Source: Bacteroidota bacterium (GTDB lineage: Bacteria > Bacteroidota > Bacteroidia > AKYH767-A > OLB10). From it: a stretch of DNA of 64,000 bases. A model generated the notes under the pieces. The model was not told the origin of the DNA. It saw only the letters and a list, made by a program, of their open reading frames with translations, and ran no database searches. Made by a program: the position numbers and the translations under genes. Positions 2,766-63,710 of this stretch are shown piece by piece. Location: contig JBJOND010000001.1 in NCBI GenBank assembly GCA_046052065.1, positions 19,194-83,193 of the forward strand, written 5' to 3'. Position 1 is the first letter of the stretch, and each line of letters begins with the position of its first letter.

Positions 2766-4058
2766 TTAATCGAGTTTATATTTTTTAAGATATTTTCTAT
2801 AAAGTTGTTCCTGAATATTATCCAAATTAATTTCTTTTCCACGGATATACGCTGACGTTACTATACTTGACTTCATATCAAGGATATCACCGGTTGAAAT
2901 AATTAAGGTGGCATCTTTTCCGTCTTCTAAAGAACCAACTGTTTTATCAATTCCTAAAATACGAGCAGGATTCAAGGTAATTGTTTGTAAAGCTTCTTCT
3001 TTTGTAAGTCCATAGCTCACTGCCTGTCCCGCTTGGAAAGGTAAATTTCGATCTTTCCAGAATCCTTCATCTGTGATTGATACATCTATACCCTTTTTCA
3101 TCAACAAGGAAGGCAGCTTATAAGGTAAGTAAACATCTTCATCATCACGACGTGGTAAGTTCTGTGTCCTTTCAAGAATAACAGGTATGTTGCGCGATTT
3201 TAATTCATCGGCTAACATCCAAGCATCGGCAGCACCACATAAAACCATACGCACTTTATAAATTTCGCAAAACTTGATAGCTGCTAAAATATCTTTTGCA
3301 AAGTTGCATCGCACATACAATGTTTTTGTATGGTTAAACAAGCCGCGCATAGCTTCTAAATTCTGATTTATTACTTCAGGATTTTTAGTAGTGGAATATA
3401 CTTTTGCATTATCAAACAAGGTTGTTAAATCCTGCATTTGCTTTGCCGATCTTTTCATTTGCTCTTCTTCTGAATCTGCCCACGAAGCTTTGATTATTTG
3501 TGTTGATGGAAAATTTAACCAGATGCCTTCATCAATTTTGTAAGCTGCATCTTCATAATTCCAAGCGTCCAATTCTACTACTGATGATTGACCAGATATT
3601 AATCCACCTGTTGGAGCAACTTGCGCTAGTAAAATTCCATTTGAGCGTACGGTAGGAGTTACTTTTGAATCCGTATTATAAGCAATGATAGCTCGTGATG
3701 ATGGATTGACATTTCCTACTTCATCATAATCATGCGTTGCACGAACTGCTTCAATTTCATTTATACCTAATACGGTATTCATTGCTATTAATCCCGGATA
3801 AACATGTTTACCATAAATATCTATGATGGTATCAAACGCGGTACGAGCTGGCTTAAATCCTTTACCATCCATAATAAAAGTAATCTTGCCTTGCGCAATA
3901 CCAATTGCACTTTGCTCTATGACAGTTCCATTTCCAACATGTGCAATACCACCTAACAATAAAATTCTTTTGGTTGCTGTATCTGCAGGTGTTGGATTCT
4001 GCGCAAAACTACTTGATGAAACAAGCAGCGAAACACCTAAAACTATTTTCTTAATCAT
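2766..4058 (-). CDS. amidohydrolase family protein (secreted)
   Basis: Signal peptide MIKKIVLGVSLLVSSSSFAQ at the internal ATG. Metal-dependent amidohydrolase fold motifs. The start lies 1-2 nt from the stop of the upstream amidohydrolase. Confidence 0.65.
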   Translation of the reverse strand: MIKKIVLGVSLLVSSSSFAQNPTPADTATKRILLLGGIAHVGNGTVIEQSAIGIAQGKITFIMDGKGFKPARTAFDTIIDIYGKHVYPGLIAMNTVLGINEIEAVRATHDYDEVGNVNPSSRAIIAYNTDSKVTPTVRSNGILLAQVAPTGGLISGQSSVVELDAWNYEDAAYKIDEGIWLNFPSTQIIKASWADSEEEQMKRSAKQMQDLTTLFDNAKVYSTTKNPEVINQNLEAMRGLFNHTKTLYVRCNFAKDILAAIKFCEIYKVRMVLCGAADAWMLADELKSRNIPVILERTQNLPRRDDEDVYLPYKLPSLLMKKGIDVSITDEGFWKDRNLPFQAGQAVSYGLTKEEALQTITLNPARILGIDKTVGSLEDGKDATLIISTGDILDMKSSIVTSAYIRGKEINLDNIQEQLYRKYLKKYKLD

Positions 4059-4059
4059 A

Positions 4060-7000
4060 TTAATGCGGTAGTTGTTCTTTATTGTTACAGTGATTAAACT
4101 CTTCCATTTTAAACGATGGCTTACCCATATTAGCACCCTTGCCTTTTTCATCCAACGATTTATTCATTAATCGTGTTTTCTCCTGATGCGCATTTATAAC
4201 CATCTGCTCTTCTTCTTTCACATCATAATAGCAAATGCCATCTACAAATGTTTTCTGAACCTTTGCGTAAATACTTAGAGGATTACCATCCCAGATTACG
4301 ACATCCGCATCTTTACCTTCTTTGATACTTCCTACACGATTATCGATGTGTAATAAAATTGCAGGATTAAGAGTGACGAATTTCAAAGCATCCTCTTCAC
4401 TCACATTACCATACTTTATTGCCTTTGCTGCTTCCTGATTTAAACGACGAGCCATTTCAGCATCATCACTATTGAGGGCTGTTACTATTCCCATATCATG
4501 AAGAATGCGAGCGTTATGAGGAATTGCCTCAATCACTTCAAACTTATAAGCCCACCAATCGCTGAATGTAGATGCCCCAACTCCATGCTTTTTCATTTTA
4601 TCCGCTACTTTATAACCTTCAAGGATATGTGTAAAGGTGTTAATTCTAAAATTAAAAGTATCTGCCACATGCATTAACATATTTATTTCTCCTTGCTGAT
4701 AACTATGACACGTAATAAATAGTTTCTTATTTAATATATCGGATAATGCTTCGAGCTCTAAATCTTTTCGAGGCATTTGTAATTTACCACCCGATTTATT
4801 GTAATTGGTCCATTTGTTTTGATATTCTCTTGCTCTGGTAAATCCATCCATATACACTTGCTCAACGCCCATTCTCGTTTGTGGATAACGAATTGTGTTC
4901 ATATCGCCCCAGTTCGTTTGTTTTACATTTTCTCCCAATGCAAATTTGATAAAGCTATCAGCGCCTTCAAACTTCATTTGCTCTGCATTCATACCCCAAC
5001 GCAACTTAATTAATTCTGTTTGTCCACCAATCGCATTCGCACTTCCATGTAACAGATGCGAAGTAGTAACTCCTCCAGCTAATTGTCGGTAGATATTGAT
5101 ATCATCTGGATTAATAACATCGCCAATTCTTACTTCGGCCGTAATCGTTTCTGTTCCTTCATTTACATCACCCTCAACAGCAATATGGGAATGTTCATCA
5201 ATCATACCCGCCGTTAAATGCAAATTGGTTCCATCAATTATCTCCAAACCTGAAAGCTTTAACATCTTTTCATCAATGCTTCCAACCTTAGTAATCTTAC
5301 CTTTAAAAATAAGTACATCCGTGTTTTTCAAAATCCCTTCTTTTTCGTTAGTCCATACCGTTATATTTTTAATTAAAACCGGATGTTCTAATGGAATACT
5401 CTTTCTTCCAAAGCCAGATAAAGGATAAGTTAACTCTGCTAAAGCAGGAGCATTACTATTTGTTTTGTTTGAAGCACTGTCTTTCTTATCAGTAAACGAG
5501 GCAGTTTGTTTTGCCGACCATACAGTCCACTCTCCATTGTTATTTTGTAATTGACCTTTGAATTCGTGATTGATATTATCAAACTGACCATTTAAACGTG
5601 TATAGCCCTTTCCTTTTACAGGTTCAAAGCGAAAAGTATACTGCAAGATATCTTTTACGAATTCTACTTTCACTTTTACAGTATCAATACTTATGGTAAC
5701 TTCTGGTTGCGATTTATTACCCGAAATATCCATTTGATAATTGTTCCCTTCTGCGGTTTTTAATTCATATACTCCACGAATATCTATAGAATCATCTTCA
5801 TTAATTACATAACGCTCGCCACCTATCCAGTTTTCTAACAAGACCCCTTCTTTAGTAAATACATCACCGCTACAAATCAGAAAATTAGCGAGCATATCTT
5901 TTTTAATTGCTCCCGTCTGATTATCGATTTTCAAAAGTTTAGCTGGCGTAAGAGTCAGTGCCTTTAATAACTTCTGTGAAGTCAATCCTGTAGATGATAG
6001 TCGTTGTAAGTTCTTTGCAAACGCTTTAGCATCCTTACATCCCGACAATGTTATACAATAGTTTACGTTGGCGCTATCTAAATAATATAAGTTATAAGGT
6101 GCGTAATCCCATTTTTTCAAATCTGCGAGTGAAACATTAGCAGCATCAAACGGATTAGAAACATCAAACCCTTCAGGGAAGTTAACTGGAATAATTAAAC
6201 TTGCTCCTGTTGCTTTAATATCGTTCAATCGCAAATACTCATCACCTGCGCCTTTCAAAATATATTGCACGCCAAATTCATCTCCTAATCGATCTGCTCT
6301 AAGTAATGAGCGATAATTATTTACTTCAAAAATCTGCGGTAATAATTGCAAATCATTCCAAGCCGTCAACGATAAATTATTGTCGCGCTCCTTTACAGTT
6401 TTATACCAAGAGGCATCCAAATACGTCTGGCGCAACAAAGCAATAGTGCCCATTAAGGATGAAGGATACTCTTGTGTTGAGCTACCTTTATTAAATGAAT
6501 ACATCGCAGCAACTTTTTCTTTAAATAGCTGAACACCTTCGTCTTTTTTACCTAACAACACAAACGCTGCAGAACCACGAGCAATTCCATCATTTTGAAA
6601 AGTAAGCACTGAGCCAAATCCGATATTACGTATTTCACCCGCCTTTTTATCGTCTATAACAAAATTAGTAGATGCATTATACTCGGCTTTAATTGCCTGA
6701 TTCCAACTAAATGCTCCTTTGGTTTGCGTATTATATTGCGGACCTCTAACACGATCGTTTCTTTTAACTTCAGGTTGACCATAATTGGAATAAATATCAA
6801 TAAACGAAGGAATGATTCGCTTGCCTTTTAAGTCATAAATGACTGCATCTGATGGCACAGGTATATTATTACCTACGGCAATTATTTTGTTAGCCTTGAT
6901 AATAAGTGTGGCGTCAGTTAAGATTGTTTTATCATCCTGCCAGATCTCAGCATGCGTAAATGCATAGGTAAAAACCCTTGGATCTGATAGGGCTTGTGTA

Positions 7001-27789: not shown

Positions 27790-27865
27790 GTAAGCATTCC
27801 TGTTTTTAAAATTTTACTTTTGCACTGCATGTAGGAAACTGCATTGCTTTAATTTTAAAATTTTA

Positions 27866-27927
27866 CTGCACCCGTAGTTTGCTTCGACGAAAGCTCAGCA
27901 CGGCGTAATTGGATAAAATGGCAGAAA
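27866..27927 (+). pseudogene. tRNA-Arg 5' fragment (pseudo-tRNA remnant)
   Basis: GCACCCGTAGTT is identical to the first 12 nt of the downstream tRNA-Arg. A 27-nt insertion follows, then AATTGGATAAAATGGCAGA (one mismatch to the D-arm and anticodon-stem start), then divergence. A more degenerate copy (GCACTGCATGTAGG) lies at about 27823. Confidence 0.5.
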
Positions 27928-27949: not shown

Positions 27950-28026
27950 GCACCCGTAGTTCAATTGGATAGAATGGCAGATTCCGGTTCTGTTGGTTGT
28001 GGGTTCGAATCCCGCCGGGTGCACCA
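27950..28026 (+). tRNA. tRNA-Arg (anticodon CCG), CCA encoded
   Basis: Acceptor GCACCCG/CGGGTGC. Anticodon stem GCAGA/TCTGT with loop TTCCGGT. T-arm GTGGG TTCGAAT CCCGC, followed by A and CCA. Confidence 0.85.
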
Positions 28027-28476
28027 GTAAGCAAAAAATCAAAAAGACGAAGTCAAGAAATAAAGCTGTTGCGAATTATGCTTGCATAAATGAGCATAAA
28101 GTTTTGTTTCGCGCAGACTGAAAGGATGCTCTTGATTTTTTATTTCCCACTTGGCTAGGTGGGAAGAACGCAGTTAATCCCGCCGGGTGCACCAGTAAGC
28201 AAAAAATCAAAAAGACGAAGTCAAGAAATAAAGCTGTTGCGAATTATGCTTGCATAAATGAGCATAAAGTTTTGTTTCGCGCTGACTGAAAGGATGCTTT
28301 TGATTTTTTATTTCCCACTTGGCTAGGTGGGAAGAACCGAGTTAATCTCGCCGGGTGCACTAGTAAGCAAAAAATTAAAAAGGCGAAGTCAAGAAAAAAT
28401 GCTTGTGCGAACTAAGCTCGCATAAATAAGCATAAAGATTTGTTTCTTGCAGACTGAAAGGATGCTTTTAATTTTT
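28011..28476 (+). repeat. three tandem 168-bp direct repeats, each beginning with a 19-nt copy of the tRNA-Arg 3' end
   Basis: Unit starts at about 28011, 28179 and 28347. Units 1 and 2 are near-identical, and unit 3 is roughly 85% identical and truncated. The core is AATCCCGCCGGGTGCACCA (unit 3 has AATCTCGCCGGGTGCACTA). Each unit holds the hairpins TATGCT..AGCATA and CCCAC..GTGGG. Confidence 0.8.
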
Positions 28477-28721
28477 TACTTCTTAATCAAATAAGAGTCG
28501 ATCCATATTGAGTCGGACTCTAAAGAATACTTTTTATAATTGGCTGTTTTCTTAAATCTCCTCATTGCTTCTAAAGTATCTTGATGCATCATTTTAATTG
28601 ATTCCACGCTTACGACTGTATAATCCTCAATGGTTTTAGAATAGTGAATTACAAATTCATATTTTGGAGACTTACATGAAATAAAAACACAACAAAAGAT
28701 AAACAATGTTAATTTTCTCAT
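28476..28721 (-). CDS. small hypothetical lipoprotein
   Basis: 81 aa. Lipobox FISCKSP after a signal peptide. Confidence 0.4.
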   Translation of the reverse strand: MRKLTLFIFCCVFISCKSPKYEFVIHYSKTIEDYTVVSVESIKMMHQDTLEAMRRFKKTANYKKYSLESDSIWIDSYLIKK

Positions 28722-28838: not shown

Positions 28839-29372
28839 ATGAAAAACATTTTATCTGCACTAGGACTCCTTTTATTTGTGATATACACCTCAAGTTGTAG
28901 TCATCAAATTAAATCGTATGAAATTAAAGATCAGTTATCCTTTGATTGCCCTGTTAAAATTGACACTGCACCAGAACTGTTTACTATTTTAAAATCAATT
29001 AATAAAAATATCGTTTATTTCGGTGTGATTAACAACAACGATAATCGCTATATGCTATCAGTAGCAAAGTATACAGCTGACGAACCTACAACCATCGATA
29101 CCGCTTTTTTTGATTTTACTGCGAATGAAGTCCCCGACAATAAAATGGGCGAATATCAGATTTTAGGTGCGGGAAAATACGTGAAAGATAACTACACTTA
29201 CTTCCGTAAAATAAGTTGCACCAACGGAACTATTTTAAATGTGATGTTTTATCTGATGAAAGAAAATAAGAGCAATTACTTATTTGAATTCAAAATGACC
29301 GGCTCCATCGATCAAAAAGATTTTATGGTTGATGTATTGGAAAAAACAGTAAGTAGTGTGGAGTGTGAGTGA
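28839..29372 (+). CDS. hypothetical lipoprotein
   Basis: 177 aa. Signal peptide plus Cys (YTSSCSHQ). Confidence 0.45.
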   Translation: MKNILSALGLLLFVIYTSSCSHQIKSYEIKDQLSFDCPVKIDTAPELFTILKSINKNIVYFGVINNNDNRYMLSVAKYTADEPTTIDTAFFDFTANEVPDNKMGEYQILGAGKYVKDNYTYFRKISCTNGTILNVMFYLMKENKSNYLFEFKMTGSIDQKDFMVDVLEKTVSSVECE

Positions 29373-33389: not shown

Positions 33390-33416
33390 ATTCAACACTT
33401 GCACATTTTTAACATC

Positions 33417-34871
33417 ATGAAAATTAGAATTAATCAGTTCGTTAGATTACTTTTATTAAGTACTCTTTTCATCAGTTCTTGCAAACTCCATAGCGAATTG
33501 CCAACTATAATTACTGAAGAGATTCCAGTTCCTGTATTAGAATCTTCGATTATACAAATTCCGGTTGAGGTAAATCTGCAGCCAATCATCAACTTTGCAA
33601 ATTCAAAAACTGACAAAGTAATTCGCAATCCTGAATATCCAAACTTTTCTACGTTTGAAGGCGTGGAAGGACCAAGAGCTAATTACGATGTTTTAATTGG
33701 AACCTTAACTGGCTCTATGCAAGGAAATAATTTCAACGTTGGAACAACGGCCGCATATGGCATAGCTGGCGACTACTGCTCAGAAATCGTTTGGGGCAAA
33801 TGCATACATCCGCGCATTCCATTTTCTTGCGGCACAAATGGAGAGGGAAAAAGAAAGGTAAAAATTGGATTTTCATCGAAGGTAGATATTACATCTTCTT
33901 ATGGATTAAAAACACAGACTGTTGTTTCGGAAGTAACACCGATTGATCCTTGCAAAATGACCTTCCTGAAAATTGACATGACGAATAAAATTATGGAAGC
34001 AATGCGTCCATCATTAAACGACTGTGCAAAGTTTATCGATGAACAAAGTAAAGCGACCAACTTTAAATCGCTTGCGCAAGAGGCATGGAAACAACTATGG
34101 ACACCGATAGATATTGATGGCTTTGGATTTTTATGTATCAGCCCAAATGAAATTAGTGTTAGTCAATTGAATGGTCAAGGGCAAAAATTAAAATTCAATA
34201 TTGGACTAAAAGCTAATCCGAAATTTACGCTTACAAAAGATTCGACATTAAAAACTCCCGCATTACCAGCATTAAAAACAAATGCTAAAAACAATTCAGA
34301 ATTTGTTTTTAATATGCCGATTATAAGCAGTTATACTGATTTAACAAATCACTTGAAAAAAAATTTCAATGAAAAAACGTTTAAGTCGGAAGACGGCAAA
34401 CAGACAATTTTAATTCACGACCTTTCGATTGTTGGGAAAGGGAACTCAACAATTGTTTTAGAAATGAACTGTGATTTAAAAATAGGCATCAAGAATTTTA
34501 ATGATGCGACTTTAATCTTTACCATAAAGCCTTTTTACGATAGCAAAAATCAAATGCTTGAACTCCGCGATGTACAATTGCAGTCTGATAAAAAGCATTT
34601 GTTATTACAAGCAGGCACAGAACTTTTTCAGAAAGTAATCGCGAAAAAAATTCAAGAATATGGCAAGACCGATTTTAAACCAATATTAGAATCAAATAAA
34701 AAATTGATTTCCGATCAATTACATAAACAGCTTGATAAAAACACTACGCTCAACGGGCAAGTGAACAACTTAAAAATTTTAGGTGTATATCCGTCAGAGA
34801 ATAATTTAATCATACACACACAAGCCATAGGCGTTTTGAATTTAAAAATGAGTGATTATAGTTTTGAGTAA
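33417..34871 (+). CDS. hypothetical lipoprotein
   Basis: The track start is a TTG. ATG gives MKIRINQFVRLLLLSTLFISSC, a lipoprotein signal. No catalytic motif. Confidence 0.45.
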   Translation: MKIRINQFVRLLLLSTLFISSCKLHSELPTIITEEIPVPVLESSIIQIPVEVNLQPIINFANSKTDKVIRNPEYPNFSTFEGVEGPRANYDVLIGTLTGSMQGNNFNVGTTAAYGIAGDYCSEIVWGKCIHPRIPFSCGTNGEGKRKVKIGFSSKVDITSSYGLKTQTVVSEVTPIDPCKMTFLKIDMTNKIMEAMRPSLNDCAKFIDEQSKATNFKSLAQEAWKQLWTPIDIDGFGFLCISPNEISVSQLNGQGQKLKFNIGLKANPKFTLTKDSTLKTPALPALKTNAKNNSEFVFNMPIISSYTDLTNHLKKNFNEKTFKSEDGKQTILIHDLSIVGKGNSTIVLEMNCDLKIGIKNFNDATLIFTIKPFYDSKNQMLELRDVQLQSDKKHLLLQAGTELFQKVIAKKIQEYGKTDFKPILESNKKLISDQLHKQLDKNTTLNGQVNNLKILGVYPSENNLIIHTQAIGVLNLKMSDYSFE

Positions 34872-34915
34872 TCAGGCTTTTTGGGGTGCTTGAGAAGAAT
34901 TGAAGGCAAGCAAAA

Positions 34916-35012
34916 ATAGAAGCTTAATTTACTTGCCTTGCTTCGTCCTATCATTTTCATTTACGTCGTAAACGATTTAACATATTAGAGATTCGCTGCG
35001 CGCTTCTCATGC
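34916..35012. repeat. copy A of a roughly 95-bp direct repeat near tRNA-Ser
   Basis: Roughly 85% identical to copy B. Shared core TTTTCATTTACGTCGTAAACGATTTAA(C/A)ATATTAGAGATT(C/T)GCTGCGC. Confidence 0.7.
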
Positions 35013-35045
35013 GAAAAAAAAATTTTCAAAAATGCAAGTGAATTA

Positions 35046-35064
35046 GCGGAGACGGCGAGATTTG
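35046..35064 (-). other. 17-18-nt copy of the tRNA-Ser 3' end (att-core-like fragment)
   Basis: GCGGAGACGGCGAGATT is identical to the 3' terminal acceptor/T-arm segment of the tRNA-Ser gene at 35306-35397. It lies about 240 bp downstream of the tRNA on the same strand. Confidence 0.6.
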
Positions 35065-35093
35065 CTTCACACATCTAGTTAGGAGGGATGCTT

Positions 35094-35190
35094 AATTCAC
35101 TTGCTTGTGCTTCGCACTAATTATTTTCATTTACGTCGTAAACGATTTAAAATATTAGAGATTTGCTGCGCACTTCTCGTAATGGGGGAA
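35094..35190. repeat. copy B of the roughly 95-bp direct repeat
   Basis: See copy A. The two copies are 178 bp apart. Confidence 0.7.
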
Positions 35191-35305
35191 GCTTCAAATA
35201 AGCATAACATGCGCTTTGCACATTTATTTTTTTAATCCATATAATCGCTCAAATAAATTTGGCGATATCTGTCATAAAAAAACAGAAAAACTGGCTTATG
35301 CTTAT

Positions 35306-35397
35306 TTGGCGGAGACGGCGAGATTCGAACTCGCGATACCCTTTTGGGGTATACACACTTTCCAGGCGTGCTCCTTCAACCACTCGGACACGTCTCC
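35306..35397 (-). tRNA. tRNA-Ser (anticodon GGA), CCA encoded
   Basis: Reverse complement reads GGAGACGTGTCCGAGTGGTTGAAGGAGCACGCCTGGAAAGTGTG...GCGAGTTCGAATCTCGCCGTCTCCGCCA. Anticodon loop CTGGAAA, long variable arm. Confidence 0.85.
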
Positions 35398-35543
35398 GTA
35401 AGGAGTCGCAAAAGTATGAATTATATTGCGATAAACTGTTCAAGAATTGATTTGACATTGATTGAGTGCTTTTTTATTTACATAAAATTAAAACCTTCTT
35501 TAATGGTATTTTATATTTTTGATTTTCTTAGTAATCCATCTGA

Positions 35544-57254: not shown

Positions 57255-60200
57255 ATGAAAAAACTACTACTTGCAGTTTTCTGCTGCATAGGTGCATTTT
57301 TGATGACCTCTCAAACTGCATCAGCGACTCACTTAATGGGTGGTAATATGACCTATGAATTTTTAGGTCTTAATTCAGGTACTGGATTATATGATTATCG
57401 TGTTACACTAAAAATTTATCGATTATGCGACCCAGGAAGTTCGCAATTACCAACCAGTACGTCATTGGGAGTTTATCAGGACAATCCAGGTAATCCGGCT
57501 TTGAAACAACGTGTTGCCCTTGCAACATTAAACCTTATATCTCAACAAGCGATCGTACCTCCTAACGCTGGGGCTAGCTGTTCTTTTGCTCCGAATGTTT
57601 GTGTTGAAGAAGGAGTTTATCAAACGACTGTTTCTGTTCCTGCAAATACTACAGGATACTATTTCATGGCCGATCGTTGTTGTAGAAATAATAACATTGA
57701 TAATTTAAGCAACCCAGGTGCAACTGGTCAATCGTATTATGCATACGCACCAGATCCATCTATCGATAACAATTCTCCAACCTTCGCTGTACCTCCGGTT
57801 CCATTTATTTGTGCAAATGATACTGTAAGTATATTAAATCAAGCAATTGATGTAGATGGTGATTCATTAAGCTATGCATTCGTTACTCCATTTGCAGGTA
57901 TTTCAAGCTCAGGTAACCCAAACCCACAAGCACCTACGAATTATACATGGCCAATTCCTACCGTTAACTACGCGACTAACTTTAGTAACACTACACCGTT
58001 TGGATTAAATAGTTATGCGGCTATGGACCCTGCAACAGGTTTAGGTGTTTATGTTTCTCCAAACCAAGGTTACTATGTTGTTGCGATTGAAATTAGCGAA
58101 TATCGAAACGGTGTATTAATCGGCGTATCAAGATTAGATATTCAGATTATTGTTATTACGTGTCCTACTAACCCAGCGCCAGCCATAGCAAATAATCAAA
58201 CAACTTACACCATACAAGAAGGTCAAACACTTTGTTTTAATGTAGGATACACAGACCCTAATGGAGATAGTTTATTTTTAACACATACTGGAGATATTTT
58301 TAATTCTACCCTTGTAAATCCAACTGCTACTTTACCAAATGTATCGGGCGATTCTGTAATAAGCGCTCAATTTTGCTGGTCAACTTCATGTAATCAAGGA
58401 AGAACAACTCCATACCAATTTTCTACTTCTGCAACAGATAATGGTTGCCCTGCTAAAGTCACAAATACAGTTTACACCATCAACGTATTAAACACACAAG
58501 CACCAACCGTAATGAATGGGCCTGATACCTTGTGTTTAAATGCTGCAACAGGTGTTGCTTATTCAGTTTCATCAACATCTGGTTATACTTATCAATGGTT
58601 AGTTACTAACGGAACACAAATTTCAGGAACAAACACTGCTAGTGCAGGCGTTACATTTTCGAATACAGGATTAGCAACGGTGAGTGTAGTTGCATTAAAT
58701 CCTTTTGGTTGTCCTTCTGACACACTTAGAAAAACTGTCTTTATTAAACCACAACCAACTGCCGCAGCTGGAACAGATGTTTCATTTTGTTCAGGTGGTT
58801 CGGCTACGTTGGGAACATCAACTACGAGCGGATATACTTACTCTTGGTCGCCAGCAACAAACCTAAGTAATAGTACTTTATCAAACCCTGTTGTAACTAT
58901 TAACAATACAGGTACTACCCCAACATCAACAACTTATATTGTAACATCTACACTTAATGGTTGTACGAATAAGGATACTGTAGTAGTAACTTCAAATCCA
59001 TTCCCTGTTGCCAATGCTGGTAACAACACATCTATCTGTAGTGGTGCAAGTGCACCGTTGGGAACATTATCAACAGCTGGATATACTTATTCTTGGACTC
59101 CAGGTTCAGGATTAAGCAACAATACGGTTTCAAATCCGGTATTCTCATTGACAAACACCGGAAATACACCAGACACTTTACAATATGTTGTTTTAGTTGC
59201 AAATGGATTTGCATGTAGCACAACAGATACTGTTCAGGTTGTAGTAAGACCTGTACCAACTGCAGTAGCAGGAAATGATTTAATTTTTTGCTCGGGAGCT
59301 AGTGGAACAGTTGGTTCAAGTAGTACAAGTGGCTATACTTACAGTTGGACACCTTCAACAGGATTAACTGCTCCTACAGGAAGTAGTTCAACAGTAACAT
59401 TAACAAACACAACTACGGCTAATGATACCGTTAGTTATATCTTAACTACAACATGGTTTGGATGTACTGCAAAAGATACAGCTAAAGTTATTGTTAAGCC
59501 TATTCCCACTGCAAATGCAGGAAATAACTTGTTCTTATGCTCTGGCGTAAATGGTCAGATAGGATCTATTTCTACTAGTGGTTATAACTATACTTGGACA
59601 CCTACGACAGGATTAAGCAATCCAAATTTATCGAACCCAACAGTTTCTTTAACCAACAATGGAATCACAACAGATACTATTTTCTATTTTTTAAATACTG
59701 ATTTAGCAGGTTGTCAGAATAATGATACTGTTCGAGTTGTTGTTGCTCCAGTACCAACTGCAAATGCTGGTTTAGATCAAACTTATTGCTCTGGGCAAAC
59801 TGTTACAATTGGTAGTGCAACTACAAGTGGATATTTATATTCATGGTCACCTGCAGCAGGATTATCAACACCAACTAATAGTACATCTACTGTAACACTA
59901 ACAAACACAAACACGGCTAATGATACCGTTAGTTATATCTTAACAACTACATGGTTTGGATGTATCGACAAGGATACCGTTAAAGTAATTGTTAAACCTG
60001 TTCCGACTGCTAATGCAGGAAACAACTTGTTCTTATGCTCTGGCGTGAATGGTCAGATAGGAACAATTTCTACGAGTGGATATGCTTACACTTGGACACC
60101 AACAACAGGATTAAGTAATCCATCTGTTTCTAATCCTGTAGTTTCATTAACAAACAATGGATCTACAACAGACACCATTTTCTATTTTTTAAATACTGAT

Positions 60201-63200
60201 TTAGCAGGTTGTCAAAATTTCGATACAGTTCGAGTAGTTGTTGGTCCTGTACCAACTGCAAATGCAGGAATAAATCAAACTTATTGTTCAGGACAAAGTG
60301 CGAGCATAGGAAGCTCTTTAACATCGGGGTATACGTATTCATGGTCACCAGCAACAGGATTAAATAGCACTACTATTTCTAATCCTACTTCAGCAGCCAC
60401 CAATTCAGGTAATTCTCCAATAACAATAACCTATTCTGTAATTGCTACATGGTTTGGATGTAAAGACACTGCAACGGTAGATGTTACTATTAAACCGGTA
60501 CCAGTATCTATTGCTGGAACTAATCAGTTATTATGTTCAGGAAACACGGTTCAACTTGGAGGCACAAGCACTAACAGTTACACCTACACGTGGACACCTG
60601 GAACGAATTTAAGTGATAGCTTGATTTCTAATCCAACATTAACCGATGTAACAACAGGACTAACACCTGATACATTATTTTATTCTGTCACAACAGAATT
60701 AAATGGTTGTACTTCTTCAGATACTGTTCAAGTTGTTCTTAGTCCTGTACCTACAGCTCAAGCAGGAAATGATATTACCTTCTGCTCAGGACAATCAGGA
60801 ACTATTGGTGACTTATCAATTTCAAATTATAATTATTCTTGGTCGCCAGCAACTGGTTTGAGCAATGCTACTAATTCTTCTACTTCAGTATCATTAACCA
60901 ATAATACTACAGCTGTTACTACAAATAACTATGTACTCACAACTAACTTATTTGGTTGTATTGATAAAGATACTGTTGCTGTAAATGTAAAACCATTGCC
61001 AGTTTCAGAAGCAGGTGCAGCAGTTTCATCGTGTGATGGCGATACAGTTGCAATCGGAACAAGCGCTACTAGCGGTTACGCATATGTATGGACACCTGCT
61101 ACAGGCTTGTCAAATAATACATCATCTACAACACAAGTTTATATCAGTAATACAGGCTCAACAGCTTCAACGGTTTACTATACAGTTACTACAACATTGA
61201 ATGGGTGTACTACATCAGACAGTGTAGCTGTAACTTCTAATCCACTTCCAATTGTAATAGCACAAGCTGCTCCTGCTGCGATTTGCTTCGGACAATCAAC
61301 TAGCATTACGGCTTCAGGTGCTTCATCTTACAATTGGGTTGAATTAGCAAATCCAGGTGTTTCAATCGGAACCGGAGCTACATTATCAATCACACCTCAA
61401 ACAAACACTACTTACGTTGTAGAAGGAACAAGTTCTGCTAACTGTATAAACTACGATACCATTACTATTACAGTTAATCCACTACCAACCGTTCAAATAC
61501 TATCATCATCTACTGACCTATGTAATGGCGATACATTAACATTAACTGCAAGTGGGGCTAACACCTATAACTGGGTTGATTTAGCTTCTGGTAATTCATT
61601 AGGAAGTGCCTCAACAATTAGTGTATTCCCTTCTGCTAATGCTAGCTATGCATTAGTTGGAACTGATGGTAACTCTTGCGTAAATTCAGATACCATTCTA
61701 GTTAATGTTAACCCTGCACCAACAATCAATGCGATAACAGGAACACTATCTGTTTGTCCAGGTGCTAGTGGCGTACAGTATTGGGTATTAAATCCCAATA
61801 CTACATCGACATATAATTGGGGCATAACAAATGGAGCGATTACCGCAGGCCAAGGCACGGATACGATCAGTATCGATTGGCCAGGAATTCAAACAGCAGC
61901 TTTCGTATCAGTTATTGAAGTAACCGATTTAGGTTGTCCTTCTGACTCAGTTCAGTTACCAATTAACATTAACGTAGTATTAGAACCAATCGCGCCTACA
62001 GGTGCAAGTACACTATGTGCGGACCTTGCGCAAGGAATTACTTACTCTACTACTAATACACCAGGCTCAGTTTATACATGGCATGCACAAGGTGGATCAA
62101 TAGTAAGCGGAGACGGCACAAGCAATGTGACTGTTGACTGGAATGTAACTGGTCCGCAGACAGTAGCTTTGTGGTATGATGAAAACAGTATTACAATTGA
62201 TACCGTTTGTGCGGGTGTTTCAGATACTTTATATGTTACTATTAATCCAATACCGGTTACAAGTACAATCACAGGAAACAATGCAATTTGTATTGGCGAC
62301 TCTGGAACATTCAGTGTTGCAAATACCGTTGGAAGTACTTACAACTGGAGTATTACAGGTGGAACAATAAATGGAACGTCAACTACAAATACAACATCAG
62401 CAACATTAACAACAGTACCAGGCGCTACTATCACTGTTCAAGAAACCAATACTTACGGTTGTATAGGAACACCTACAACATACAATGTAACAGTAAATCC
62501 GCTTCCTAACGCTGAGGCAGGTACGAACGTCACAATTTGTAATGGAACAACAACCACTTTAAATGCTAGTGGTGGCACCTCGTATGCTTGGACAAACAAT
62601 AGCACATTAGATAACTTAACGATTGCCAATCCTATTGCTAACCCTTCTGCAACTACTACCTACTACGTTTTAGTTACTGATGTAAATGGTTGTAAAAATT
62701 CTGATAGTGTAACAGTTGTAGTTAATCAATTACCAAATGTTACCGTTAGTAACAATACAGCTATTTGTATTGGCGCATCAACTCCAATAACTGCTTCGGG
62801 AGCAAGTATCTATAGTTGGTCTCCATCAACTGGATTAGATAACGCAAATATTGCCACTCCAACAGCTAATCCTACAAGCACTACTACCTATACTGTAATT
62901 GGAACTGACAACAACGGATGTTCTAATTCTAATAGCACAACAGTTACGGTTAACCCACTTCCAACAGCAGTTGTATCAAGCGGTGGAAATATTTGCAATG
63001 GAGGAAGCGTCAATTTAACGTCGAGTGGTGGTACATCATACAGCTGGACACCTTCAACAGGATTAAATAATGCAACAATTGATAACCCTATTGCATCGCC
63101 AACAACAACTACTACGTATACAGTAACTGTTACAGACGCTAATGGATGTACTGATGATGATCAAGTAACTATTAATGTTAACGACCAACCAATTGCTGCG

Positions 63201-63710
63201 TTTGCAATTGATACTGCAATAACGGTTGTAGGTTGTGAAGGAGTAGAAATTACATTGATCAACAATAGTACGTTTGCATTAAATTACGAATGGAACTTTG
63301 GTGATGGCAGTACATCTACAGATGCTAATCCTTATCACGTATTTGCATTTGGCTCATCAAACGGTATCACATTAGTAGCTTATAACAATCAATGTTCAGA
63401 TACGTTGGTTACGCCATTTAGTCCTGGTCAATTAGCTGATTACTTCAGCAATATTCCAAATATCTTTACTCCTAATAATGATGGCATCAACGATTGTTTC
63501 AATCTTGGAGAAAATACTAAGTTTGAAGATTGCAGTTCTTGGGAAATCTATAATCGTTGGGGAACTAAAGTATTTACTAGCAGTACTGCACAAACATGCT
63601 GGAATGGAAAGAAAGATAATACAGGAGAAGATCAACCAGCAGGAACTTACTTCTACATTTTAAAAGCAGGCAATGCCGATTACAAAGGAACGGTAATGCT
63701 GAATCGCTAA
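57255..63710 (+). CDS. giant repeat-rich surface protein with T9SS type B (gliding-motility-associated) C-terminal domain; SprB-like adhesin candidate
   Basis: 2151 aa with a signal peptide. About 12 or more tandem Thr/Ser-rich repeats of roughly 80 aa (…TANAGN..F.CSG…GYTYSWSPATGLS…). The C-terminus NIFTPNNDGINDCF...YFYIL matches the type B CTD. Confidence 0.8.
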   Translation: MKKLLLAVFCCIGAFLMTSQTASATHLMGGNMTYEFLGLNSGTGLYDYRVTLKIYRLCDPGSSQLPTSTSLGVYQDNPGNPALKQRVALATLNLISQQAIVPPNAGASCSFAPNVCVEEGVYQTTVSVPANTTGYYFMADRCCRNNNIDNLSNPGATGQSYYAYAPDPSIDNNSPTFAVPPVPFICANDTVSILNQAIDVDGDSLSYAFVTPFAGISSSGNPNPQAPTNYTWPIPTVNYATNFSNTTPFGLNSYAAMDPATGLGVYVSPNQGYYVVAIEISEYRNGVLIGVSRLDIQIIVITCPTNPAPAIANNQTTYTIQEGQTLCFNVGYTDPNGDSLFLTHTGDIFNSTLVNPTATLPNVSGDSVISAQFCWSTSCNQGRTTPYQFSTSATDNGCPAKVTNTVYTINVLNTQAPTVMNGPDTLCLNAATGVAYSVSSTSGYTYQWLVTNGTQISGTNTASAGVTFSNTGLATVSVVALNPFGCPSDTLRKTVFIKPQPTAAAGTDVSFCSGGSATLGTSTTSGYTYSWSPATNLSNSTLSNPVVTINNTGTTPTSTTYIVTSTLNGCTNKDTVVVTSNPFPVANAGNNTSICSGASAPLGTLSTAGYTYSWTPGSGLSNNTVSNPVFSLTNTGNTPDTLQYVVLVANGFACSTTDTVQVVVRPVPTAVAGNDLIFCSGASGTVGSSSTSGYTYSWTPSTGLTAPTGSSSTVTLTNTTTANDTVSYILTTTWFGCTAKDTAKVIVKPIPTANAGNNLFLCSGVNGQIGSISTSGYNYTWTPTTGLSNPNLSNPTVSLTNNGITTDTIFYFLNTDLAGCQNNDTVRVVVAPVPTANAGLDQTYCSGQTVTIGSATTSGYLYSWSPAAGLSTPTNSTSTVTLTNTNTANDTVSYILTTTWFGCIDKDTVKVIVKPVPTANAGNNLFLCSGVNGQIGTISTSGYAYTWTPTTGLSNPSVSNPVVSLTNNGSTTDTIFYFLNTDLAGCQNFDTVRVVVGPVPTANAGINQTYCSGQSASIGSSLTSGYTYSWSPATGLNSTTISNPTSAATNSGNSPITITYSVIATWFGCKDTATVDVTIKPVPVSIAGTNQLLCSGNTVQLGGTSTNSYTYTWTPGTNLSDSLISNPTLTDVTTGLTPDTLFYSVTTELNGCTSSDTVQVVLSPVPTAQAGNDITFCSGQSGTIGDLSISNYNYSWSPATGLSNATNSSTSVSLTNNTTAVTTNNYVLTTNLFGCIDKDTVAVNVKPLPVSEAGAAVSSCDGDTVAIGTSATSGYAYVWTPATGLSNNTSSTTQVYISNTGSTASTVYYTVTTTLNGCTTSDSVAVTSNPLPIVIAQAAPAAICFGQSTSITASGASSYNWVELANPGVSIGTGATLSITPQTNTTYVVEGTSSANCINYDTITITVNPLPTVQILSSSTDLCNGDTLTLTASGANTYNWVDLASGNSLGSASTISVFPSANASYALVGTDGNSCVNSDTILVNVNPAPTINAITGTLSVCPGASGVQYWVLNPNTTSTYNWGITNGAITAGQGTDTISIDWPGIQTAAFVSVIEVTDLGCPSDSVQLPININVVLEPIAPTGASTLCADLAQGITYSTTNTPGSVYTWHAQGGSIVSGDGTSNVTVDWNVTGPQTVALWYDENSITIDTVCAGVSDTLYVTINPIPVTSTITGNNAICIGDSGTFSVANTVGSTYNWSITGGTINGTSTTNTTSATLTTVPGATITVQETNTYGCIGTPTTYNVTVNPLPNAEAGTNVTICNGTTTTLNASGGTSYAWTNNSTLDNLTIANPIANPSATTTYYVLVTDVNGCKNSDSVTVVVNQLPNVTVSNNTAICIGASTPITASGASIYSWSPSTGLDNANIATPTANPTSTTTYTVIGTDNNGCSNSNSTTVTVNPLPTAVVSSGGNICNGGSVNLTSSGGTSYSWTPSTGLNNATIDNPIASPTTTTTYTVTVTDANGCTDDDQVTINVNDQPIAAFAIDTAITVVGCEGVEITLINNSTFALNYEWNFGDGSTSTDANPYHVFAFGSSNGITLVAYNNQCSDTLVTPFSPGQLADYFSNIPNIFTPNNDGINDCFNLGENTKFEDCSSWEIYNRWGTKVFTSSTAQTCWNGKKDNTGEDQPAGTYFYILKAGNADYKGTVMLNR
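59400..60398 (+). repeat. recent intragenic tandem duplication (2 x 498 bp, about 90% identical) inside the adhesin gene
   Basis: ACAAACACAACTACGGCTAATGATACCGTTAGTTATATCTTAAC... at about 59403 recurs at about 59901. The long identical runs include TTTTCTATTTTTTAAATACTGATTTAGCAGGTTGTCA. Confidence 0.75.

What the first reader, a model, noticed from the sequence alone, without database searches (positions are those of the whole stretch)
34900..35400. The tRNA-Ser(GGA) locus shows the same architecture: a duplicated 17-nt tRNA 3' end 240 bp downstream plus two roughly 95-bp direct repeats
On the minus strand, the intact tRNA-Ser at 35397-35306 is followed by copy B of a roughly 95-bp repeat (35190-35094). 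Next comes an exact 17-nt copy of the tRNA 3' terminus, GCGGAGACGGCGAGATT, at 35064-35046, then copy A of the repeat (35012-34916). Each segment therefore reads att-core, spacer, repeat. This is the same logic as at tRNA-Arg, which suggests one recurrent mechanism or element family using both tRNAs. Both loci also share a short inverted motif near the att core, TTATGCTT ... AAGCATAA. I rate that similarity as weak.
Basis: seen in the sequence. Interest (0 to 1): 0.55.

Follow-up and report, generated by a model that had tools for sequence, protein, structure and literature searches.

The report
Hairpin-module array trailing tRNA-Ser gene
Downstream of a serine tRNA gene in an uncultured freshwater Bacteroidota genome lies a fast-rearranging array of conserved hairpin modules carrying a stray copy of the tRNA's last 17 bases; it looks like a mobile-element scar, but it has no integrase, sits only at this locus, and is more likely a structured tRNA trailer amplified by recombination.

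Summary
tRNA-Ser(GGA) lies at 35307-35397 (minus strand). An exact 17-nt copy of its 3' end lies at 35046-35062. A 92-nt direct repeat (88% identical) lies at 34919-35008 and 35087-35178. tRNA-Arg(CCG) has a parallel layout, 168 bp x 2.8.

Comparison with about ten syntenic relatives changes the reading. The region is built from a few hairpin modules (X, T1, H) joined by a conserved C-rich linker and a 21-23-nt palindrome (M2).
- Module order, copy number (1-3) and orientation differ between close relatives.
- The modules are 80-92% identical, against 36-62% for four-fold-degenerate sites in the flanking genes.
- T1 and the Arg hairpin show compensatory base changes.
- Six C-GNA-G mini-hairpins sit in the arrays, all on the tRNA-sense strand.
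- The array stays downstream of the tRNA even after an inversion.

No recombinase domain was found in the window. The modules occur nowhere else in any DNA searched. The Arg and Ser units share no significant sequence.

Best reading (about 0.45): these are conserved structured 3'-trailer modules, amplified and shuffled by unequal recombination whose junction lies in the T-loop. The main rival (about 0.25) is an integrase scar or miniature element. Function was not tested.

The parts
35307..35397 (-). tRNA-Ser(GGA), intact. A Bacteroidota-type -7 box (TACTTTTG) lies just upstream.
   Evidence: ARAGORN; Rfam 54.5 bits; sequence read.
35309..35325 (-). Core 1: the 17 nt AATCTCGCCGTCTCCGC, running from the T-loop AAT through the T-stem 3' strand, the acceptor 3' strand and the discriminator to the first C of CCA.
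35196..35307 (-). Module X: a 112-nt extended hairpin that starts at the last base of the tRNA. Closing stem AAATAAGCATAA / TTATGCTTATTT. The 17-nt apex GCCAAATTTATTTGAGC (35247-35263) is identical in the window, L003 and L006.
   Evidence: RNA fold -33.1 kcal/mol, z = -4.5. 80-86% identical to X of L003 and L006. Alignment A2.
35158..35195 (-). C-rich linker plus palindromic junction motif M2 (GAGAAGTGCGCAGCAAATCTC), centred on a GCGCAGC mini-hairpin.
35087..35178 (-). Direct repeat copy B. It combines the right part of M2, small hairpin H (35118-35157), mini-hairpin GTGCGAAGCAC (35107-35117) and arm J (35090-35104).
   Evidence: blastn 88% over 92 nt. Homologous to the unit present 1x in L013 and 3x in L007/L008.
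35057..35089 (-). C-rich linker plus a degenerate M2 (TAGATGTGTGAAGCAAATCTC) that runs straight into core 2. This is the junction between trailer sequence and the tRNA 3' end.
   Evidence: (repeat D2).
35046..35062 (-). Core 2: the displaced exact copy of the 17-nt tRNA 3' end. It lies within the interior (roughly 44-nt) region of a hairpin closed by arm J and the T1 left arm.
   Evidence: Fold of 35030-35125: -27.9 kcal/mol, z = -4.3.
35002..35045 (-). Truncated module T1: left arm TAATTCACTTGCA plus an A/T-rich segment. It is fused at a shared GAGAAGC to the next M2. In L003, L007, L013, L014, L016, L017, L103 and L108 the full 113-nt T1 hairpin directly follows the tRNA.
   Evidence: Covariation in T1.
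34919..35008 (-). Direct repeat copy A: M2 at 34988-35008, hairpin H at 34949-34987, and a degenerate mini-hairpin and arm.
34903..34939 (-). Terminal hairpin formed by the end of copy A with the conserved flank TTTTTGCTTGCCTT. It may be the terminator of the convergent DUF4403 gene (33399-34871, plus strand).
   Evidence: Fold. The flank is conserved in all window-type relatives.
27950..28026 (+). tRNA-Arg(CCG), the parallel locus.
28008..28482 (+). Arg trailer array: 168 bp x 2.8. Each unit is the 19-nt tRNA 3' end, a conserved multi-branch hairpin of about 115 nt, then CCCACTTGGCTAGGTGGGAAGAACGCAGTT. Cores lie at 28008-28026, 28176-28194 and 28344-28362.
   Evidence: TRF. Alignment A1 with 5 compensatory pairs and 94.4% of cells paired. 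Coordinates.
27868..27925 (+). Pseudo 5' half of tRNA-Arg (acceptor, D arm, anticodon stem 5' strand) with an insertion of about 27 nt in the D loop. It lies between the TACTTTTG -7 box (27815-27822) and the real tRNA. L006 and L103 carry two copies.

Best explanation
**What it is.** The 430 bp downstream of tRNA-Ser(GGA) is a locus-bound array of a few conserved hairpin modules (X, T1, H), joined by a C-rich linker and a short palindrome (M2). It is found only in one genus-level lineage. It is most likely the transcribed, structured 3' trailer of the tRNA gene.

**How it formed.** The array grows, shrinks and reshuffles by recombination between its own repeated parts. One class of events has its junction in the tRNA T-loop, where the 3' arm of M2 (AATCTCG) is identical to the T-loop/T-stem. 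Such an event places a displaced copy of the last 17 nt of the tRNA inside the trailer (core 2). Recombination between the two 17-bp cores then removes or restores the 263-bp block between them. The tRNA-Arg locus shows the same process in its simplest form, a 168-bp tandem duplication.

**Shown:**
- the anatomy of the array
- its variability between relatives
- module conservation well above neutral sites
- compensatory changes in T1 and in the Arg hairpin
- strand-specific mini-hairpins
- co-orientation with the tRNA after an inversion
- no recombinase domain detected in the window, and no copies elsewhere

**Inferred:**
- that the modules act as RNA, for example as a released trailer RNA or as a processing, stability or termination element of the pre-tRNA
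- that the junctions arose by microhomology-mediated or pseudo-att recombination rather than by insertion of foreign DNA
For: 1. Relatives share the modules in different orders.
- Window: tRNA-X...core2-T1. L003, L016, L017, L095: tRNA-T1...core2-X. L103: tRNA-T1...core2*-T1.
- L006 and L019 have X first and no core 2. L013 has one copy of the repeat unit and L007/L008 have three.

2. The modules are conserved well above neutral sites.
- X is 80-86% and Arg unit 1 is 89-92% identical between the window and L003, L006 or L018.
- The comparison values are 36-62% at four-fold-degenerate sites and 58-60% in the adjacent tRNA-PAP2 spacer.

3. The hairpins show covariation.
- T1: 39 pairs, 96.4% of cells paired, 8 pairs changed on both sides, 0 of 500 shuffles as high, about 30% paired when the partners are slid.
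- Arg hairpin: 38 pairs, 94.4% paired, 5 pairs changed on both sides, at most 4 of 500 shuffles as high.
- The mini-hairpin GTGCGAAGCAC becomes GTCCGCAGGAC in L108.

4. The signal is strand-specific.
- The tRNA-sense strand folds with z = -6.2, the antisense strand with z = -2.75.
- All six C-GNA-G mini-hairpins in the arrays are on the tRNA-sense strand. That is 6 in 1,062 nt where 0.30 are expected, P about 8e-7, or about 3e-4 if counted as 4 independent sites.
- By my count from the tables, G-U exceptions outnumber A-C exceptions by 13 pair columns to 3.

5. The array is tied to the tRNA transcription unit.
- X and T1 start at the last tRNA bases.
- In L017 and L103 the tRNA is inverted and the array moved with it.
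- The only -7 box at the Arg locus lies upstream of the pseudo 5' half.

6. The Arg locus points to duplication rather than foreign DNA.
- The units are homologous to the native last unit at 82-87%.
- L103 carries the pre-junction motif ...GGAGATAATC with no tRNA piece after it.

7. No mobile-element partner was found.
- No recombinase among 28 window ORFs or the syntenic gene tables.
- No module copy elsewhere.
- Nothing in viral, phage or plasmid collections.
Against: - No expression data: transcription through the array is inferred only.
- X shows conservation but no covariation.
- The two 95-nt repeat copies are not unusually stable on their own (z = -1.9 and +0.3).
- One A-C intermediate occurs in a T1' copy of L006.
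- Both breakpoints inside the tRNAs fall exactly where tyrosine integrases of tRNA-targeting islands cross over (from my recollection of Williams 2002): the T-loop for the two 3' copies, and the anticodon stem/loop border for the Arg 5' pseudo-half.
- Presence or absence of the block between the cores among close relatives is also what an excising mini-element would give.
- C-GNA-G loops are best known as DNA mini-hairpins (PMC13037366), which would favour single-stranded DNA over RNA.
- Complete genomes of the lineage could not be searched, so copies elsewhere or a recombinase acting in trans are not excluded.
Confidence: 0.45

Rival explanations
1. Integrase scar or miniature element. The two 17-bp cores are attL and attR left by a tRNA-targeting integrative element, or by a non-autonomous, CIME-like mini-element moved in trans. 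Only its att-proximal arms remain. The array records successive integrations, deletions and tandem accretion.
For: - The direct repeat is an exact copy of the tRNA 3' end starting in the T-loop, at the same position at the Ser and Arg loci.
- The Arg 5' pseudo-half ends at the anticodon stem/loop border.
- The block between the cores is present in the window and absent in L007 and L013.
- Module order is swapped between lineages.
- Toxin-antitoxin cassettes sit in the same trailers in relatives: DUF4160/DUF2442 at Ser in L006, L019 and L095, and HipBA at Arg in L003 and L016.
- Partial tRNAs as relics of old integrations are well documented (10.1101/2020.12.28.424599; PMC4383910; PMC9897764).
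Against: - No recombinase domain was detected in the 64-kb window or in the syntenic loci.
- The 246 bp between the cores is non-coding and made of the same modules as the rest of the trailer.
- The Arg units are homologous to the native trailer.
- The modules occur only at these loci.
- No phage, plasmid or viral contig carries the junction.
- The modules are conserved with compensatory changes across lineages whose silent sites are near saturation, unlike decaying scars.
- The toxin-antitoxin cassettes have no att-like repeats at their borders.
Confidence: 0.25
2. Neutral repeat-prone spacer. The hairpin-rich DNA next to highly transcribed tRNA genes simply suffers replication slippage and unequal crossing-over. 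The modules and the 17-mer have no function.
For: - Copy-number variation of 1-3 units, mosaic junctions at short shared strings (GAGAAGC, AATCTCG), an inversion and deletions in close relatives.
- A more distant relative, L102, has an unrelated 57-bp x 8.3 tandem array after its tRNA-Arg.
Against: - Module identity of 80-92% against 36-62% at four-fold-degenerate sites and 58-60% in the neighbouring spacer.
- 8 and 5 compensatory pairs in T1 and the Arg hairpin.
- Strand-specific mini-hairpin enrichment.
- Among 56 tRNAs in 1.17 Mb of Bacteroidota loci, only these two tRNAs of this clade carry such copies.
Confidence: 0.15
3. Single-stranded-DNA recombination sites. The palindromes and GNA mini-hairpins are folded-DNA sites for a recombinase or HUH enzyme encoded elsewhere, in the manner of integron attC sites or IS200/IS605. 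That would make the trailers tRNA-anchored cassette arrays able to capture small cassettes such as the toxin-antitoxin pairs.
For: - GCGNAGC-type loops are classic stable DNA mini-hairpins found at single-strand initiation sites (PMC13037366). They are enriched and strand-specific here.
- The toxin-antitoxin cassette of L006 and L019 joins the array exactly at the centre of an M2 palindrome: CGAGATGTGCG|ACAAAG.
- X and T1 behave as alternative cassettes between the same left (core) and right (linker-M2) anchors.
Against: - No such enzyme was found nearby.
- There is no second half-site at the far end of the toxin-antitoxin cassette.
- The arrays keep their orientation relative to the tRNA, not relative to replication: Arg and Ser lie on opposite strands 7 kb apart, and the inversion carries the array along.
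- There is no dispersal.
Confidence: 0.08

Closest known systems
attL/attR direct repeats of tRNA-targeting genomic islands, prophages and tycheposons (Islander database PMC4383910; 10.1101/2020.12.28.424599)
   Same: There is an intact tRNA plus a displaced exact copy of its 3' end in direct orientation. The identity block starts in the T-loop. The block is present or absent between close relatives. Small cargo (toxin-antitoxin genes) sits at the same loci in relatives.
   Different: There is no integrase, no cargo and only 246 bp between the copies. The intervening DNA is made of the same conserved, structured modules as the rest of the trailer. At the Arg locus the 'element' is homologous to the native flank.
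CIMEs (cis-mobilizable elements: att-flanked ICE derivatives lacking recombination genes; recalled from the Streptococcus thermophilus literature, not checked here)
   Same: A segment flanked by att-like sites without its own recombinase, at a tRNA-type site, possibly in tandem.
   Different: Known CIMEs are kilobases long and derive from identifiable ICEs. Here the unit is 168-263 bp, no parent element was found, and mobility was not shown.
tRNA 3' external transcribed spacer RNAs (for example 3'ETS-leuZ of E. coli; from memory)
   Same: A functional RNA would be made from the trailer of a tRNA transcript. Here the trailer modules abut the tRNA 3' end and have conserved, covarying structure.
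   Different: No expression or processing data exist here. The trailers are modular, tandemly amplified and include copies of the tRNA 3' end. There is no sequence relationship and no Rfam match.
REP/BIME palindromic units and MITEs
   Same: Imperfect palindromes in intergenic DNA between convergent genes, arranged in arrays whose copy number varies between strains. X and T1 have 12-13-bp terminal inverted repeats.
   Different: REPs and MITEs are dispersed in many copies. These modules occur only at one locus each in everything searched.
Integron attC arrays / CALINs
   Same: An ordered series of imperfect palindromes of 50-140 nt that may act when folded, with cassette-like exchange.
   Different: There is no integron integrase, no ORF cassettes between sites and no R/L box consensus. 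The array is anchored on a tRNA 3' end.
DNA mini-hairpins GCGNAGC / GCGNNAGC (Kimoto and Hirao 2026, PMC13037366)
   Same: Repeated C-GNA-G or GCGAAAGC loops with 3-4-bp stems: GTGCGAAGCAC, TGCGCAGCA, GACGAAGTC, AACGCAGTT, and GCGAAAGC in the Arg leader.
   Different: Those hairpins are known from phage and plasmid single-strand origins. Here their role, and whether they act as DNA or RNA, is unknown.

Membership tests
tRNA-targeting integrative element (island or prophage) | Tyrosine (or serine) integrase gene within or next to the att-bounded segment | tested here: not met
   There is no ORF between the cores. Pfam scans of 28 window ORFs found no recombinase. None is present in the gene tables of the syntenic loci.
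tRNA-targeting integrative element (island or prophage) | Direct repeat of the tRNA 3' portion bounding the element, with an intact tRNA at one end | tested here: met
   17 of 17 nt exact at 35309-35325 and 35046-35062. At the Arg locus, a 19-nt core appears three times.
tRNA-targeting integrative element (island or prophage) | Foreign cargo between the att sites, with an empty site in relatives | tested here: inconclusive
   Empty-like states exist (L007, L013, L006 and L019 lack core 2). The 246 bp between the cores is non-coding and made of modules native to the trailer.
CIME / miniature cis-mobilizable element | Excision or integration catalysed in trans by a cognate integrase | not testable with these tools
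   No genome-wide recombinase inventory and no read-level data were available.
REP/BIME or MITE | Many dispersed copies per genome | tested here: not met
   blastn of the window against itself, motif and nhmmer searches of 1.2 Mb of loci and a JGI metagenome scan (two syntenic hits only).
Integron / CALIN | attC sites separating ORF cassettes; an IntI integrase for full integrons | tested here: not met
   No ORF cassettes between the palindromes and no integrase.
Xer/dif site or IMEX array | 28-bp site with inverted XerC and XerD arms around a 6-8-bp spacer, near the GC-skew switch | tested here: not met
   Only an 11-mer resembling the XerD arm (ATATGTTAAAT versus TTATGTTAAAT of the predicted Chitinophaga pinensis dif, PMC3025954 supplement). 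There is no inverted left arm, it is absent from L003-type arrays, and there is no skew switch.
Known RNA family (Rfam 15) | Covariance-model match at or near the gathering score | tested here: not met
   Only the tRNAs match. All other hits are far below their gathering scores.
Paralogous or decayed tRNA gene remnant | Similarity to the tRNA beyond the duplicated 3' block | tested here: not met
   Smith-Waterman against shuffles gives p = 0.18-0.97 for Ser and Arg. There is no second tRNA hit at E < 5.
Type I toxin-antitoxin repeat (small hydrophobic ORF plus structured RNA) | Conserved small ORF under purifying selection | tested here: not met
   The 22-aa ORF in the Arg units has mostly non-synonymous differences. 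Its stop is lost in L016 and L018 and its start is lost in the last unit.
tRNA 3'-trailer-derived structured RNA | Conserved secondary structure with covariation, on the tRNA-sense strand, contiguous with the tRNA | tested here: met
   covariation; strand asymmetry; co-inversion.
tRNA 3'-trailer-derived structured RNA | Co-transcription with the tRNA and a stable processed product | not testable with these tools
   No transcriptome data are available.

The most novel reading that the evidence does not exclude
The trailers of tRNA-Ser(GGA) and tRNA-Arg(CCG) in this freshwater Bacteroidota lineage are tRNA-anchored cassette arrays. A recombinase encoded elsewhere would recognise a T-arm-like hairpin (stem equal to the cognate T stem, enlarged loop carrying a C-GNA-G mini-hairpin). 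It would exchange, amplify and capture short structured cassettes (X, T1, H) and occasionally gene cassettes (toxin-antitoxin pairs) at the tRNA 3' end. This would be an integron-like system without a linked integrase, whose cassettes are functional RNAs.
Probability: 0.1. Interest if true: 0.75.

Novelty: new variant of a known kind. Interest (0 to 1): 0.45.

Why it matters
A displaced tRNA 3' end is routinely read as proof of a past integration, and island finders rely on it. Here the same signature sits inside a conserved, covarying, strand-specific hairpin array that never leaves its tRNA. That suggests such 'att scars' can also arise from, or be kept within, functional tRNA trailers. If the modules are stable RNAs, they would be an undescribed class of lineage-specific trailer RNAs in abundant freshwater Bacteroidota. 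If a recombinase drives the shuffling, they would be a very small cassette system. In either case the locus is a sharp strain-level marker, and it appears to break metagenome assemblies: several contigs end inside the array.

Tried and rejected
1. Phage or plasmid attP partner.
- Viral-contig scans for M2, for J and for the non-tRNA contexts of both cores gave only chance coding hits or a phage tRNA.
- blastn against phages and plasmids found nothing.

2. Dispersed MITE or REP family. The JGI metagenome scan gave two syntenic contig ends only. nhmmer profiles hit only the syntenic trailers.

3. Decayed paralogous tRNA, or a tRNA 3' half extending upstream of the core: not significant.

4. Arg and Ser units as one sequence family: not significant. 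The anchored 15 nt before AAT share 9-10 of 15 positions by eye. This was noticed post hoc and is left as a lead.

5. dif/Xer site. Only an 11-mer resembling the XerD arm. No left arm, no skew switch, and it is absent in relatives.

6. Small ORFs or a type I toxin: not conserved as coding sequence.

7. Canonical terminators or sigma-70 promoters: at chance level. An antisense TAAATTTG box at the X apex is conserved, but a transcript starting there would run antisense through the tRNA with no clear downstream target.

8. Clean site-specific borders for the toxin-antitoxin cassettes (DUF4160/DUF2442, HipBA): none found.

9. The loop pattern G..CG.AG..A in hairpins elsewhere. The only hit outside the arrays was one chance terminator in L092. 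The pattern was derived from the data, so this test is circular.

10. Rfam at relaxed thresholds: nothing.
Full report
**1. The observation**

ARAGORN and Rfam place tRNA-Ser(GGA) at 35307-35397 on the minus strand. The 17-mer AATCTCGCCGTCTCCGC runs from the T-loop AAT to the first C of CCA. It occurs exactly twice, at 35309-35325 and 35046-35062. About 0.04 matches are expected by chance even with three mismatches allowed. The match extends to 20 nt with one mismatch. The direct repeat is 35087-35178 versus 34919-35008, 88% identical over 92 nt.

tRNA-Arg(CCG) at 27950-28026 is followed by a 168-bp x 2.8 tandem repeat, and each unit starts with the last 19 nt of the tRNA. A pseudo 5' half of tRNA-Arg carrying a D-loop insertion lies upstream at 27868-27925.

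**2. Context**

The window has 35.7% G+C and carries housekeeping genes of a Chitinophagales-like Bacteroidota: SprA, GcvH, PorZ, T9SS sorting domains, AspRS and others. No recombinase or transposase domain appears in the 28 ORFs scanned. The Ser array fills the gap between the tRNA and the 3' end of a convergent DUF4403 gene. A PAP2 gene diverges from the tRNA on the other side.

**3. Relatives**

Homologues of the PAP2 and Glyco_transf_9 genes brought in syntenic loci from freshwater MAGs and metagenomes, with PAP2 64-92% identical. Reading all the trailers in tRNA orientation shows a small vocabulary of parts:
- **X**: a 112-nt hairpin closed by AAATAAGCATAA / TTATGCTTATTT.
- **T1**: a 113-nt hairpin closed by TAATTCAMTTGCA / TGCAAKTGAATTA, containing the mini-hairpin GTGCGAAGCAC.
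- **H**: a short hairpin that shares its right part with T1.
- **Linker and M2**: a C-rich linker followed by a palindrome, CGAGATGYGCGYAGCRAATCTCG.
- **Core**: the tRNA 3' piece, which sometimes follows M2.

The arrangements differ between relatives:

| Locus | Arrangement after tRNA-Ser |
|---|---|
| Window | tRNA-X-M2-H-M2-core2-T1(truncated)-M2-H |
| L003, L016, L017, L095 | tRNA-T1-M2-core2-X... |
| L103 | tRNA-T1-M2-core2*-T1 |
| L006, L019 | tRNA-X-M2-(T1'-M2)x2, no second core, then a DUF4160/DUF2442 toxin-antitoxin pair |
| L013 | tRNA-T1-M2-H |
| L007, L008 | As L013, but with three H units |

In L017 and L103 the whole block (promoter, tRNA, array) is inverted. A more distant relative, L102, has a plain terminator after tRNA-Ser. 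After its tRNA-Arg it has an unrelated 57-bp x 8.3 array. Several metagenome contigs end inside the array.

**4. Is it junk?**

Four-fold-degenerate sites of the flanking genes are only 36-62% identical between the window and L003 or L006. The tRNA-PAP2 spacer is 58-60% identical. By contrast X is 80-86% identical and Arg unit 1 is 89-92% identical.
- T1 (five distinct sequences): 39 pairs, 96.4% of cells paired, eight pairs changed on both sides. None of 500 column shuffles reached these values, and about 30% of cells pair when the partners are slid.
- Arg hairpin (eight sequences): 94.4% of cells paired, five pairs changed on both sides.
- X is conserved but shows no covariation.

In the window itself, X folds with z = -4.5. 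The hairpin that encloses core 2 (arm J pairing with the T1 left arm) folds with z = -4.3. The two 95-nt copies are not remarkable on their own.

**5. Strand and linkage**

The tRNA-sense strand of the Ser array folds far better than the antisense strand (z = -6.2 versus -2.75). C-GNA-G mini-hairpins with stems of at least 3 bp occur six times in the 1,062 nt of the two arrays. The remaining 62.9 kb holds 18, so 0.30 would be expected in the arrays. All six lie on the tRNA-sense strand. These are the GCGNAGC-type loops known as very stable DNA mini-hairpins (PMC13037366), so DNA versus RNA remains open.

Three points tie the arrays to the tRNA transcription unit rather than to replication:
- The Ser and Arg arrays lie on opposite strands 7 kb apart, each co-oriented with its tRNA.
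- The inversion in L017 and L103 carried the array along with the tRNA.
- X and T1 begin at the last bases of the tRNA.

At the Arg locus, the only Bacteroidota-type -7 box lies upstream of the pseudo 5' half.

**6. Origin of the 17-mer**

At the Arg locus the units are homologous to the native last unit. L103 has the pre-junction motif (...CCCACTTGGCTAGGCGGGAACAACGGAGATAATC) with no tRNA piece after it. The junction is therefore best explained as a tandem duplication joined at AATC.

At the Ser locus, M2 occurs several times without a core, and its 3' arm AATCTCG equals the T-loop/T-stem of the tRNA. L103 shows the simple product (T1...core-T1). The other arrangements follow from deletions between cores and exchanges between shared anchors.

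An integrase using the T-arm and a T-arm-like pseudo-site would give the same products. It would also explain why the breakpoints fall at the T-loop and the anticodon loop. I cannot separate the two possibilities.

**7. Searches for a mobile partner, all negative**
- Viral-contig scans.
- Phage and plasmid blastn.
- JGI metagenome scan, which returned two syntenic contig ends only.
- Motif and nhmmer searches of all held DNA.
- Rfam.

The Arg and Ser units are not significantly similar in sequence. Among 56 tRNAs in 1.17 Mb of Bacteroidota loci, only these two tRNAs of this clade carry such copies.

**8. Verdict**

The 'recurrent element family' reading is only partly supported.

The most economical account is a conserved, structured tRNA trailer that is amplified and reshuffled by recombination, with one junction type in the T-loop. 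I give this about 0.45. The main rival, at about 0.25, is an integrase scar or mini-element. Function is inferred, not shown. I rate the finding a new variant of known kinds, with moderate interest.

Noticed in passing
window 27868-27925 (also L006 1-125, L103 320-480): Upstream of tRNA-Arg lies a pseudo 5' half of the tRNA (acceptor, D arm, anticodon stem 5' strand). About 27 nt are inserted in the D loop, including a GCGAAAGC mini-hairpin. It sits between the TACTTTTG -7 box and the real tRNA. L006 and L103 have two tandem copies, and it is roughly 85% conserved by eye between relatives.
   Followed up: partly
L102 3817-4291 and 4290-4338: In a more distant relative, tRNA-Arg(CCG) is followed by a canonical terminator and then a perfect 19-bp-stem palindrome. 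Its loop is GCACGAAGTGA, and its right arm shares GACTCCCTTC with the tRNA T-loop/T-stem. After that come 8.3 tandem 57-bp units, each with a TTCCGAAGGAA mini-hairpin.
   Followed up: partly
L006 6489-6987; L019 about 2936-3530; L095 about 290-840; remnant in L003: A DUF4160/DUF2442 toxin-antitoxin-like gene pair sits at the distal end of the tRNA-Ser array in some relatives. It joins the array at the centre of an M2 palindrome. L003 keeps only the cassette leader.
   Followed up: partly
L003 1-1506; L016 (reverse-complement coordinates 3793-5600): An HTH/HipA (HipBA) module plus a 77-aa ORF replaces the second half of the Arg trailer and the two small ORFs found in the window (28476-28721 and 28839-29372). 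There are no att-like borders.
   Followed up: partly
L017 1700-2085; L103 6220-6615: The promoter, tRNA-Ser and proximal array are inverted relative to the window, so the tRNA points toward PAP2. In L017 the distal breakpoint lies at the apex of hairpin X. In L103 it lies just beyond a T1 left arm.
   Followed up: yes
window 28090-28158 and 28258-28326: Each of the first two Arg units carries a 22-aa hydrophobic ORF (MSIKFCFAQTERMLLIFYFPLG) on the tRNA-sense strand. Differences between relatives are mostly non-synonymous and the stop is not conserved, so it is probably not coding.
   Followed up: partly
window 59394-60297: A 498-bp x 1.8 tandem repeat (85% matches) lies inside the 2151-aa ORF at 57255-63710. 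It is presumably a repeated domain of a large surface protein.
   Followed up: no
window 34988-35008 plus 34976-34987; 35158-35178 plus 35146-35157: The sequence after M2 in both window repeat copies (ATATGTTAAAT / ATATTTTAAAT) matches the XerD arm of predicted Bacteroidota dif sites at 10 and 9 of 11 positions. There is no inverted left arm and no GC-skew switch, so I judged it chance.
   Followed up: yes
L001, L002 (Logan contigs of the window's own strain), L009-L012, L014, L095, L096, L108: Short-read metagenome contigs repeatedly end inside tRNA-Ser or inside the array. This is consistent with repeats or strain heterogeneity at the locus.
   Followed up: no
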